A stretch of DNA of 63,698 nucleotides, the filler included, from Lenisia limosa (lineage: Eukaryota; Protista; Breviatea): NCBI GenBank assembly GCA_001655205.1. It is 13 parts of 13 records of this genome, joined end to end, with 100 filler letters (N's around TTAATTAATTAA, not from the genome) between each part and the next. Parts side by side here need not be neighbours in the genome. Positions count along the whole stretch, not along the records: positions 1 to 19,098 come from LPNZ01010004.1; positions 19,199 to 24,006 come from LPNZ01006888.1; positions 24,107 to 25,212 come from LPNZ01001045.1; positions 25,313 to 28,615 come from LPNZ01005231.1; positions 28,716 to 30,354 come from LPNZ01005792.1; positions 30,455 to 42,607 come from LPNZ01006437.1; positions 42,708 to 50,510 come from LPNZ01010625.1; positions 50,611 to 54,681 come from LPNZ01008720.1; 5 more parts are not named here. One strand, written 5' to 3'. Shown piece after piece: positions 3,101 through 61,895 of this stretch. Below the pieces are notes generated by a model that was not told the origin of the DNA, did not search any database, and was given only the letters and a program-made list of their open reading frames with translations. Every line of letters begins with the position of its first letter. Positions within the stretch are counted from its first letter, which is position 1. Position numbers and translations under genes: made by a program.

Positions 3101-6100
3101 NNNNNNNNNNNNNNNNNNNNNNNNNNNNNNNNNNNNNNNNNNNNNNNNNNNNNNNNNNNNNGATAATATGAGAACAGTGGGGTTTCCACATGTGTTTAAC
3201 CCGATTGGCAGTGCCAACCTCCTGTGCTGTACCAGTCTGCGAGGCATAAATGATATTGAGCTTTCGTATTTGCTGGGGATCAAGTCTGGTGGGGGGGGGG
3301 GTCAATGAGAAGGGTGCTGAAAATTGAAAGATAACAGCGCAAGCTCAATATAAAACAGTTTCTTGGTAATATCAACTTGTCTTTTTCGGAATGGCAACTT
3401 GGGCTTCACTTTGGTTCGAAAAAGTCTGGTAAATATCGATAGTTTTCCATGATTTATTGAGACATTCAGCCTTTTTTCGTAAATTACTACCAGCCAAATC
3501 CACGAAAAACGAGAAATTGACCTGCATGAACTAACCGAATAGTTGAGACGGACGAGGCTGCATGGGAACTGACCGTGAAGTTGGTGGACTGGAAGAGTAA
3601 ATATTTATTTATCATAATGTATAGAGAAAATATAAATAACATATACTATATCTAGATATGTATACATATATACTGTATATATCGATATGCATATATTATA
3701 TGATATATTATATATGTATGTAAGTACATATATGACATTTTGAGCGGGAAAACAATTGGATTGAGAAAAGTCCAGGTAAATAATTGCTGATAACCCCCCC
3801 CCCCCCANNNNNNNNNNNNNNNNNNNNNNNNNNNNNNNNNNNNNNNNNNNNNNNNNNNNNNNNNNNNNNNNNNNNNNNNNNNNNNNNNNNNNNNNNNNNN
3901 NNNNNNNNNNNNNNNNNNNNNNNNNNNNNNNNNNGTCCTTTGCAATTCGTGAGTGCGGCTTTTGGAGGAAGTCTTGGTAGAGGTGATGGATGATTGGCAA
4001 CTGGTGAGACTCGCGACAGTCCTGAGGAAGGTAACAGACACATTGAAGGAACTCGAGGAGCTGACTGATGCATTTTAATTAACAAGCTGAGTGTTGTAGT
4101 TCAAAAGACATTGTATTTGAAATAAGAGGAATAGCACTCCTCCTTGTCAACAGACAAAAACAATGTAGAGGATATGTGCCTACTAAAATGGCTTCCTTGG
4201 CATATAGAGAGTTCACACGAGTTTGAATGATATTTTTGTCAGGAGATCTGAGTGGTTATTTGAGAGATTATTTCAACATGTTATGGCATACAATGAAACA
4301 TCCATATGATTTATTACATATCATATAGTATATTAGTATATATCATATTCTATGTAATATACATACATATCTAGTATACACTATGTACATATATATAATA
4401 TACGAAGCAGCAATGAACCGTACACCATTATGCTTTCAGGCGATAGATATTGTATTATAGAAGCCCTACACCCGCCTTGGTTGGCCGCCGCCACCAAGGC
4501 AGCCTCCAGGACACGCCATCACTTCAATGAAATCATAAGGGCATTCTCCTAAGGGGGGGGTTAAGGGCATAAAATGTAAGTACAATTAACTTCGGGTTGA
4601 TCCCCCCAATGACAGCAAAAATTGTCTATTTCAGATTGAAGAGACGTCAAAAGTTGCCTGAATACAGCCGCATGATTAGGGCTTCACTTTGGTCCGAAAA
4701 AGACCGAATTTCTCGATAAATTCTAGATAAATACCGATATTTTATTGGTATTTTTCGAACCGAAGTGAAGCCCTACCCATGATCCAACCTTTTTTGATCA
4801 TATCCGCAATTGGACGAACATTCTTGATACCATGGACAATAGCTATTCGTACCTAGTGGGGGAGGGGGGTAAAATGGGAAAATTTATGAAACAAAAAAAC
4901 CCAAATCAACTCTACAAAAGGGTTGATAACAACAAAACAAAGCCTAGGCTAATCGTTTCTGCAGCACCGCATCCCATCACTCTATTACAAACTAATACAC
5001 TTTGTTCATGGCAGCTTTTGCATAGAAATACGTGTCACACCGTGATTTCTGGGGTAATTTGGTAGGTTGCCTCTTTGATGGAACTCGAGATACTAAACAG
5101 TGAAATGAAAAAAAAAAATGCTTAAAAAATGCCTGTCCATACCAAAAATATCACTGGTGAAACTGAAGCTGGATTAAAGCATTGTGGTATTTCTATTTGC
5201 TTTATCTTGATATTTTACGTATTTTTAAAAACGAAATCAAGTCCACAAACCCTCTAGTGAAGTTATACACGAGGCTTCGTGCAGAATTCCCGGTTAAAAC
5301 ACTTGAAACCGTTCTTAGAACGGCTTCCTAAAGGAGTATGAAGGGCTTGGATATCAATCGAAGACTCTATGTTGAGCCTTTTCAATGATGAAGACAAATC
5401 AGAGCAGCATTCCTCTACTCGCAATGTTACTCATGCTCTTTATAAGAAAAGTATCTACATAGCCTCCTTACAAATACGCCCCCCTCCCTACGGTAACACC
5501 TCCTGAGCCAGCGAATAAGGACCCGGCACCAGAACCAGGCCCAAGGGGCGCATCAAATTCGCTTTCTTCGACACTTGAAATATCGATCCTGCGGCCAGTT
5601 AAATAACTAAGAGAAAAACGCAAAAAAAAAAAACTGAAGGATGAAAAGCAAGCCCGGATGTTTTGTCAGGGGCCAAGTTTATTGGCCTGTGAAGTTGGTA
5701 AACAAAGTGGTGTCCTACGTCCTAAACAGCCCACCTCCGGTTCCGGACCCATCTTCCAAGCTCTCGTACGGTCAGCACCTGGTCAACATCGGGGTAGTCG
5801 AGCCTGGGTGGTGAGGGTTTCAGCACAATGACCGGGAAATATAACTTCAAGATATTTCATATTGGAGGATCCCCAGGTAAAAGCAACAGCATGTTGATAT
5901 AAAAAAAAAAACACACAAGAAATGTCATTCGATTCTCTGGAGCCAAGTTCACTATGTCTTTGGAATACTATTACTTATTGTATATGATACGTATTGTCTA
6001 TTTCGGCTTGACTGGGAAATAAAAGATCACAAACCCACTACCTGATGTTTTCCTTTCTGTTTTTCTCATTTTTCTTTGAGGTACACGGCATAATGCCAAC

Positions 6101-60969: not shown

Positions 60970-61895
60970 TACTTGACTAGAGAACCCGCGAGGCTTTGCG
61001 AGGTTTTCATGAGTGTTTCCTGAACCTTTGCCTTCATGACACCCTGAAAGGTTAATGTTTTAGAAGATATATGGTCATATGTCTGATTGTACTAAATCAA
61101 ATAATATTACCACCACCCCTTCATTACTCCTACATATTCCCCTCAACATTCCCCACATTCCAATATATAAAACACACAACATAAACATCGGTATAAAAGT
61201 ACACAACACACACCCACCTTCACGTAAGCATCAGTGTGAGTGTCTTCATCGCCGAACAAGATCTTGTCAACACGAACGTAGAGAACCACGTCGCGGGACG
61301 GCTTTTGGACGGTCAGACGGAATTTTTTTGGCGTTCCTGCGGGGGATGGGGTAAATATAAATGATGAAACAAAAAAAGCCCAAATAATGAAATAATGTGC
61401 ATTTATTTGTTACCCTTGTCTTGTATTCAATACATGACTTCATAAAAAAACAGACCAAAAACTCCCCCATACCGAGAGAAGGTGGCTGCTGGAGTTCGGG
61501 CGGCAAATGAAGCTCCGTAGTCGGCAGGTTGGGGTTGATGTGGAAGTCCTCGGAGATCTTGGTGAGAGTAGAGGCGTCTGGGGGCGGAGTAAAATGGGGA
61601 CATTTAGCCCAAATTCAACACTGCTGGCTGACAACACACAAGGGTTGAAAACAAGAAAACAATCAAAGCCCAGGCCAGTCGCTTCGGCAGCACCGCATCA
61701 GTAAAATTGGAAAATTGATGAACCAAAAAGGGGGAGGGGAGTAAGAGGGGAGTAAAACGAAGGAGGGGATATAAACAAAAGAGGGCCGCATACCATAGAG
61801 AGAGCAGGTGATAAAAAGCGCTTCCATAAGACCGATGGGGAAGTCGAGGGAATCGAAGGAAATCACGAAGGATGACACACTGGGCACTTCAGGTA
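60970..61895 (-). CDS. uncharacterised gene fragment
   Basis: Four GT-AG exons (VSSFVISFDSLDFPIGLMEALFITCSLY; LTKISEDFHINPNLP; KKFRLTVQKPSRDVVLYVRVDKILF; VMKAKVQETLMK). Confidence 0.5.

What the first reader, a model, noticed from the sequence alone, without database searches (positions are those of the whole stretch)
4853..61780. Intron-shaped dispersed repeat locked to transcript orientation and to 3' splice sites (introner-like or intron-module propagation)
Seen: a ~140-nt repeat whose sense strand starts GTA(T/C)GCTGGAGTGATGGG (donor-like; 6288, 51667) and ends ..TTTTACCCCCCCCAG (branch, C-tract, AG). About 12 copies in 7 unrelated genes (hydrogenase, GALK, MPPED, GDPD, BBS9 and two unknowns) on both strands are all co-oriented with the host gene. 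Several end exactly at the working acceptor (4853, 6149, ~19790, 23297, ~61580). I see no TIRs or TSDs, unlike the MITEs here. At 6149-6288 it sits as a complete GT..AG unit inside a larger intron, behind a 16-nt frame-breaking pseudo-exon. Known: Introners in algae and fungi are repeated introns. Inference: an RNA-mediated intron-generating element, or strong selection for a reusable 3' splice module. Caveat: I found no intron made only of this repeat.
Basis: partly seen in the sequence, partly recalled or inferred. Interest (0 to 1): 0.8.

Follow-up and report, generated by a model that had tools for sequence, protein, structure and literature searches.

The report
Repeat that rewrites intron acceptor ends
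A short repeated DNA element sits inside introns that already existed, always facing the same way as its gene and often right at the intron's exit signal; it likely spreads through an RNA copy into runs of C there and likely stays harmless by carrying a replacement branch signal, rather than creating new introns.

Summary
The repeat is real. There are 13 significant copies of a ~135-nt element in the window, all on the host gene's strand (9 of 9 gene units). Read depth in the matching DNA run suggests thousands of copies genome-wide (rough). It is not an introner: none of 56 catalogued introns matches it from donor to acceptor. Its GT is a weak, unconserved donor. RNA contigs fit one-step splicing of the 232-nt intron 6149-6380 without the 'pseudo-exon'. 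Copies share a fixed 3' end (branch-like TTTTAC plus a C-run), have ragged 5' ends and form head-to-tail stacks. Five of 11 have a leftover branch module just upstream, as expected if they inserted into an existing acceptor C-run. Best reading: a non-autonomous retroelement that targets C-runs and works like the Chlamys Penelope-like elements of Chlamydomonas. Its tail rebuilds the branch region, so the 3' splice site becomes a safe haven. The strand lock (6 of 20 sense C-runs occupied, 0 of 22 antisense) needs selection or transcription-linked targeting as well. No autonomous partner was found, so the mechanism is inferred. New variant of a known kind.

The parts
6149..6288 (-). Full-length family-1 copy forming the 3' 140 nt of the 232-nt hydrogenase intron 6149-6380; ends TTTAC + C-run + working AG
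   Evidence: RNA contig geometry
6289..6304 (-).
   Evidence: PWM tail 0.002; its AG scores below all true acceptors
4853..4982 (-). Near-full family-1 copy ending at a hydrogenase acceptor; no leftover module upstream
7267..7350 (-). Weak, decayed match near a hydrogenase acceptor
   Evidence: z 5.5
11800..11833 (+). Weak 3' module before a C-run and AG in a plus-strand gene (host strand by eye)
   Evidence: alignment score 27, threshold 28
19384..19422 (-). 3' module making up most of a 49-nt GALK intron
19785..19876 (-). 3' part of a copy at a GALK acceptor; 5' side lost in an N gap
22785..22806 (-). 3' tip (branch module, C-run, AG) after an N gap, GALK
23297..23357 (-). 3' part of a copy at a GALK acceptor
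28716..28781 (-). 5' part of family 1 (28716-28750), directly preceded by a family-2 tail (28752-28781); cut by a scaffold end
31733..31787 (+). 3' half ending in a short C-run about 25 nt before the working AG
43660..43776 (+). Chimera in a 158-nt MPPED intron: family-3 piece, family-1 middle, family-2 tail, C-run, AG
47116..47183 (-). Middle part of a copy; then a 97-N gap, C-run and AG of a GDPD acceptor
50611..50637 (-). 5'-truncated piece in a BBS9 intron, cut by a scaffold end
51437..51482 (-). Family-2 tail at the working BBS9 acceptor
51547..51744 (-). Head-to-tail pair (truncated 51668-51744, full 51547-51667) ending in a C-run without AG, about 110 nt before the acceptor
53313..53416 (-). 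Copy ending in a C-run without AG; downstream acceptor not resolved; 5' end in an N gap
55595..55701 (+). 5'-truncated copy (55620-55701) with a leftover branch module upstream; 3' end in an N gap
60454..60500 (-). Family-2 tail with C-run, cut by a scaffold end
61337..61385 (-). 3' module at a working acceptor of the DOCK-like gene
61578..61770 (-). 5'-truncated copy at the working acceptor (61578-61699), preceded by stacked leftover modules and C-runs (61700-61770)

Best explanation
This is a ~135-nt repeated element that lies inside introns on the gene's own strand, and it likely spreads as a non-autonomous retroelement whose RNA copy is reverse-transcribed into the C-runs of existing 3' splice sites, where its own branch-like tail likely keeps splicing intact. 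SHOWN: fixed 3' end at TTTTAC + C-run, ragged 5' ends, head-to-tail stacks, leftover branch modules upstream, enrichment at acceptors, strand lock, and unoccupied native C-run acceptors. INFERRED: the C-rich 3' end of the element RNA pairs with the nicked G-strand of a C-run and primes cDNA synthesis by a partner reverse transcriptase (Penelope-like or LINE; not found here). The old branch region is pushed upstream with 1-5 C, and the host's AG is kept. Reverse insertions, at the G-runs beside donors, are removed by selection or are never targeted.
For: (1) 3' ends are fixed and 5' ends ragged in the window. In the DNA run, four of the six listed loose-end piles sit at the C-run (4858, 4859, 4864, 6151; 76-193 contigs each) and none at a 5' end (295 rows not shown). 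(2) Tandems: 51547-51744, and run joints 4982->4858 (5 contigs), 4982->6151 (3), 6270->6151 (2). (3) A leftover module lies upstream of 5 of 11 copies, binomial P=1e-4; junction letters show the same with a few C retained. (4) 7 of 11 visible 3' ends lie within 20 nt of the AG against 2.0 expected, P=9e-5. (5) Six of 12 C-rich acceptors lack the element, so the target exists without it. (6) Summed depth is 1.6-3.5e5 on the repeat against 24-32 on the flanks. (7) Precedent: Chlamys elements give 5'-truncated insertions of median 128 bp, all intronic, at (C)n (PMC9977147, passages), with head-to-tail non-autonomous copies and 30-40-bp tails (PMC8557442, passages).
Against: (1) No reverse transcriptase or GIY-YIG relic was found: 72 of 166 non-genic ORFs of 50 aa or more were scanned, and the genome was not available. 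(2) Pure (C)n targeting predicts antisense copies at donor-side G-runs, yet 0 of 22 carry one, so a second factor is needed. (3) Family 3, which has no C-tail and is not at acceptors, is also co-oriented 5 of 5, so strand lock may be general selection in this genome. (4) Six of 11 copies have no leftover module. (5) No inverted 5'-truncated copies, no hammerhead, and no empty-versus-filled allele was seen. (6) Breakpoints were set by eye, and three short 3' fragments in the acceptor test were noticed partly because of their position, which inflates that P value.
Confidence: 0.5

Rival explanations
1. Untargeted insertion plus purifying selection. The element carries its own C-tail and lands anywhere in introns; only sense copies that end at the acceptor or lack a following AG survive.
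For: Antisense strands carry better cryptic acceptors (51st-66th percentile of true sites in 4 of 5 copies) than sense strands (17th-40th). Family 3 is also strand-locked. Four copies end away from the AG.
Against: It does not predict leftover branch modules upstream of 5 of 11 copies or mixed-family stacks at one site (43660-43776, 51437-51744, 61578-61770). Antisense cryptic donors are weak (15th percentile or lower in family 1). In mammals, elements are depleted near exons, most of all near acceptors (PMC3088655, abstract).
Confidence: 0.2
2. DNA-level templated repair or ectopic conversion at fragile G/C runs. A broken G-run end anneals to another intron's C-run, copies its upstream sequence for a variable length and rejoins, so the commonest 3' intron end spreads without any transposon.
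For: It explains the fixed 3' ends, ragged 5' ends, short junction microhomologies (table 5c) and chimeras of three families. No autonomous partner was found. Copies cluster by gene: 0 of 21 ABCF introns, several in hydrogenase, GALK and BBS9.
Against: A defined 5' start (GTAYRC) recurs at 6288, 51667 and in two run junctions, as expected of a discrete element. Antisense G-runs should be repaired the same way, but 0 of 22 carry a copy.
Confidence: 0.13
3. The template is an excised intron RNA (lariat loop). It is reverse-transcribed across the branch and integrated at branch regions of other introns, with targeting linked to transcription or splicing.
For: The unit runs from GT to a branch-like TTTTAC, and full-length junctions read TTTAC|GT (6288, 51667, one run junction). 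It would explain the strand lock directly.
Against: A lariat junction should join the branch A straight to GT, whereas 1-2 C intervene at the full-length junctions. The GT is a weak donor that varies at +5. No source intron was seen.
Confidence: 0.1
4. Introner: the repeat creates whole introns, and the 5' parts have since been replaced or decayed.
For: It has a GT..AG shape at 6149-6288 and no TIR or TSD, like fungal introner-like elements (PMC9860276, passages). Only one window was examined.
Against: 0 of 56 introns align from the donor; similarity starts 58 nt or more inside, except one 49-nt intron that matches only the last 32 nt of the consensus. The AG is not constant. The published definition excludes secondary insertion into existing introns.
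Confidence: 0.05

Closest known systems
Non-autonomous Chlamys Penelope-like elements (Chlamys-N4_cRei, MRC1) of Chlamydomonas reinhardtii
   Same: (C)n target, all-intronic insertions, heavy 5' truncation to about 130 bp, head-to-tail multicopy insertions, a 30-40-bp tail at either end, obscured TSDs, usually no hammerhead (PMC9977147 and PMC8557442, passages).
   Different: No partner RT or GIY-YIG protein and no inverted copies were seen here. Strand lock to the host and enrichment at working acceptors are not mentioned in the passages read ('orientation' and 'antisense' occur 0 times in PMC8557442). No sequence homology was tested.
Introners / introner-like elements
   Same: Dispersed intron-associated repeat, co-oriented with genes, GT..AG shape in one copy, no TIR.
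   Different: Similarity does not reach the donor end of any intron; the element lies inside introns that are complete without it (definition).
Stwintrons and sister introns of Hypoxylaceae
   Same: An intron-like unit inside a larger intron.
   Different: No splice signal is rebuilt by removing the inner unit, no 45-55-nt terminal inverted repeats, and no new intron positions shown (PMC8469720, abstract).
SINEs inserted by target-primed reverse transcription (recalled)
   Same: Short, non-coding, high copy, homopolymer 3' end matching the target run, 5' truncation.
   Different: The tail is C, not A. No tRNA, 5S or 7SL head was found (no Rfam hit), and sense T-runs would stop Pol III. Mammalian elements avoid acceptors.

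Membership tests
Introner | Similarity extends to both splice boundaries of the intron | tested here: not met
   0 of 56 introns; genome-wide not testable
Introner | Position is intron-less in orthologues | not testable with these tools
   No eukaryotic gene structures were reachable; homologue searches were empty
Introner | Element's own donor is used in splicing | tested here: not met
   RNA contig geometry fits the 6381|6148 join, no cover over 6293-6350; weak donor. Contigs drop rare forms.
Non-autonomous Chlamys/Penelope-like element | 5' truncation with fixed 3' end | tested here: met
Non-autonomous Chlamys/Penelope-like element | Partial or head-to-tail tandems | tested here: met
   51547-51744; run joints
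Non-autonomous Chlamys/Penelope-like element | Insertion at (C)n runs | tested here: inconclusive
   Visible 3' ends abut C-runs and leftover modules keep a few C, but no empty site was available
Non-autonomous Chlamys/Penelope-like element | 3'-end similarity to an autonomous RT + GIY-YIG family | not testable with these tools
   No genome held; none among window ORFs scanned
Non-autonomous Chlamys/Penelope-like element | Inverted 5'-truncated copies next to insertions | tested here: inconclusive
   None among 13 copies; small sample
SINE | Pol III-derived head (tRNA, 5S, 7SL) and A-rich tail | tested here: not met
   No Rfam match over any copy; the tail is a C-run
MITE / TIR DNA transposon | Terminal inverted repeats and fixed-length TSD | tested here: not met
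   No TIR in the alignment; folding z -1.7 to +0.6
Stwintron / recursive splice site | Inner removal rebuilds a splice signal, or AG|GT at the inner start | tested here: not met
   6288 is preceded by TTTCAC and 51667 by TTTACC

The most novel reading that the evidence does not exclude
A mobile element family that is guided to 3' splice sites by transcription or the splicing machinery itself, for example through an excised-intron RNA template. It has serially overwritten the branch regions of thousands of introns, so that a large share of this genome's working acceptor context is element-derived: a splice-site replacement element distinct from introners.
Probability: 0.15. Interest if true: 0.85.

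Novelty: new variant of a known kind. Interest (0 to 1): 0.52.

Why it matters
Insertions next to acceptors are normally among the most harmful intronic insertions and are depleted in mammals (PMC3088655, abstract). Here a family with probably thousands of copies is enriched there, seemingly because its tail restores the branch region. That would be a new safe-haven niche for a retroelement, comparable to rDNA, telomere or microsatellite targeting. It would let a mobile element reshape splice signals genome-wide without adding introns. Introner screens filter out exactly this pattern, so it could be overlooked in other genomes.

Tried and rejected
(1) The whole genome was not held, so no genome-wide tabulation was possible. 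(2) Exact-pattern scans of metagenome contigs and prokaryote genomes gave 0 hits. (3) Earlier findings by place, words and sequence: none. (4) Homologue searches with single exons gave nothing useful (one weak hit), so lineage and intron-position conservation are untested. (5) Rfam: no family over any copy. (6) Stable RNA fold: rejected. (7) Cryptic antisense donors as the cause of strand lock: rejected. (8) Decayed whole-intron copies among the 136-146-nt introns: alignments start 58-90 nt inside. (9) Locus-specific TSD versus family tail for the upstream module: compared by eye in 4 copies, undecided. (10) A first C-run test used a wrong host strand for the gene at 11817 (6 of 24 vs 1 of 31, p=0.035); it was redone with a corrected strand, an 8-C cut-off and an alignment criterion (6 of 20 vs 0 of 22, p=0.007). 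(11) Known errors in the hand-made 56-intron catalogue: the MPPED intron is 158 nt, not 985; one GALK donor is off by about 9 nt; the BBS9 join 53586-53066 does not keep frame. None creates an end-to-end match. (12) Reads could be laid on only one stretch. Low-depth repeat fragments in the RNA run were not taken as evidence of element transcription. (13) Paper searches for a prior description found nothing relevant; supplements were not read, and those of the Chlamys papers may hold orientation data.

Full report
SETTING. The window is an intron-rich eukaryote scaffold set with 5,896 N, concatenated through spacer-bearing gaps. It carries an FeFe-hydrogenase (Pfam), a GALK2-like kinase (PDB), an MPPED-like gene, GDPD and BBS9, an ABCF-like gene and a DOCK-like gene (both named by eye; open spliced frames), and a canonical U1 gene. 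No whole genome was held. One DNA-like run (X1) holds 97% of the sampled words of 3000-12900, and one polyA RNA run (X2) holds 16%.

THE REPEAT IS REAL. Iterated nhmmer from 6148-6290 gives 13 hits at E<=0.01. Eight aligned copies are 88-100% identical to a 135-nt consensus over aligned columns. Laying X1 on 4785-6500 placed 5,403 contigs, with summed depth of 1.6-3.5e5 on the repeat against 24-32 on single-copy flanks. The tool warns that this is no copy number, but the ratio (about 1e4) agrees with the window's density and points to thousands of copies. No Rfam family covers a copy. Seven folds gave z from -1.7 to +0.6, and no TIR is visible.

ORIENTATION. All 13 hits lie on the host strand, in 9 of 9 gene units (0.5^9 = 0.002). 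Host strand rests on homology or open spliced frames for 11 hits and on exon-like ORFs for 2. In 56 hand-catalogued introns, 12 have sense matches to the full consensus at z>4. The only antisense signals are two short matches scoring 22-28. Among long C-runs in genes with visible upstream sequence, 6 of 20 sense runs carry the element's tail and 0 of 22 antisense runs do (Fisher p=0.007). The antisense runs are largely the G-runs that follow donors. Against over-reading this: an unrelated family 3 is also co-oriented in 5 of 5 copies with an assigned host. The palindromic MITE is mixed (4 vs 9 of 13, orientation partly ambiguous).

NOT AN INTRONER, NOT NESTED SPLICING. No intron aligns from its donor. 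Similarity begins 58-509 nt inside, except a 49-nt intron that matches only the last 32 nt of the consensus. Published introner definitions require similarity up to both boundaries and exclude secondary insertion (PMC12130899 and PMC9860276, passages). The internal donors rank at the 24th and 26th percentile of 54 true donors. Two junctions in X1 show a variant without the +5 G that 48 of 54 true donors have. The GT is preceded by TTTCAC or TTTACC, not AG, so it is not a recursive site. The AG of the 16-nt 'pseudo-exon' scores below all 53 true acceptors. In X2, one contig covers 6380-6452 with 35 letters left over and another ends at 6142. Thirty-five is exactly what a direct 6381|6148 join with a 30-letter contig overlap requires (my inference from geometry, since the joint table was cut). 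X2 depth over 6293-6350 is zero. Contigs drop rare isoforms, so minor use is not excluded.

ANATOMY POINTS TO INSERTION INTO EXISTING ACCEPTORS. The 3' end is fixed at a branch-like TTTTAC followed by a variable C-run, and 5' ends are ragged. Four of the six listed X1 loose-end piles are at the C-run and none is at a 5' end (295 rows hidden). The AG is not part of the element: copies at 51547, 51668, 53313 and 31787 lack it. Seven of 11 visible 3' ends lie within 20 nt of the working AG, against 2.0 expected (P=9e-5). The copy at 23297 was left out because its intron length is unknown, and three short fragments were noticed partly by position, so the P value is optimistic. Directly upstream of the 5' break, 5 of 11 copies (6288, 51667, 61699, 55620, 28750) have a leftover branch module above the 95th percentile of background (P=1e-4; breakpoints by eye). 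The 'pseudo-exon' is one of these. Junction letters in X1 and X2 show the same arrangement with a few C retained. A second family shares the C-run/AG end (4 copies), and modules of different families are stacked at single sites (43660-43776, 51437-51744, 61578-61770). Six of 12 C-rich acceptors have no element, just a YTRAC-like or plain C-rich end, so the target exists natively. The ABCF-like gene, which lacks such runs, has 0 of 21 occupied introns.

MECHANISM. The simplest account is target-primed reverse transcription of a C-tailed, non-autonomous element into the C-run of a 3' splice site. The old branch region is displaced upstream, the element's tail supplies a new one, and the host AG stays. 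Priming, the enzyme and the functional replacement of the branch point are all inferred. No RT or GIY-YIG match was found in 72 of 166 non-genic ORFs scanned. Because pure (C)n targeting would also fill donor-side G-runs in reverse, the strand lock needs selection or transcription-linked targeting. Antisense copies would bring cryptic acceptors at the 51st-66th percentile in 4 of 5 copies, against the 17th-40th in sense. Antisense cryptic donors are weak.

COMPARISON. It works most like non-autonomous Chlamys Penelope-like elements: (C)n target, all-intronic, median 128-bp 5'-truncated insertions (PMC9977147, passages), head-to-tail copies and 30-40-bp tails (PMC8557442, passages). Membership is unproven, because homology to an autonomous family could not be tested. 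Strand lock and acceptor enrichment were not in the passages I read, and five searches for a prior description found nothing relevant. Supplements were not read. Mammalian elements show the opposite trend near acceptors (PMC3088655, abstract).

VERDICT. This is a new variant of a known kind. Interest 0.52: a probable splice-acceptor safe-haven element at high copy, supported by one window and one read-laying run.

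Noticed in passing
window 41896-42058 (-): U1 snRNA gene, Rfam 69.6 bits, with a canonical donor-pairing 5' arm.
   Followed up: partly
window 30240-30354(-), 30477-30508(+), 40482-40515(-), 43660-43683(+), 47786-47864(-), 50744-50782(-), 57566-57630(-), 63122-63199(+): A third repeat family with a UUCG-type hairpin and short tandems; co-oriented with the host in 5 of 5 assignable copies but not at acceptors.
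   Followed up: partly
window, 17 sites such as 4671-4791, 6509-6634, 22996-23107, 27398-27509: Palindromic ~110-nt MITE inside many introns, with mixed orientation; gives spurious microRNA-precursor hits.
   Followed up: partly
window ~21400-22200: Broken DDE/pogo-like transposase relic, by eye, inside a 2-kb GALK intron; no Pfam hit.
   Followed up: no
window ~300-8860 (-): FeFe-hydrogenase apparently fused to a C-terminal flavodoxin-like region (by eye; those exons had no Pfam hit); includes a probable GC-AG intron at 4248-4475.
   Followed up: no
introns across the window: Many donors are followed by long G-runs and many acceptors are preceded by C-runs; these runs coincide with many assembly gaps, so copies are probably undercounted. 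C-rich acceptors are patchy by gene (0 of 21 in the ABCF-like gene at 8 or more C).
   Followed up: partly
window 6149-6288 (+ strand): The reverse strand of full copies is also roughly intron-shaped: a weak GT after the G-run and a good acceptor-like end.
   Followed up: partly
window 20086-20299: 28-nt tandem repeat inside a GALK intron.
   Followed up: no
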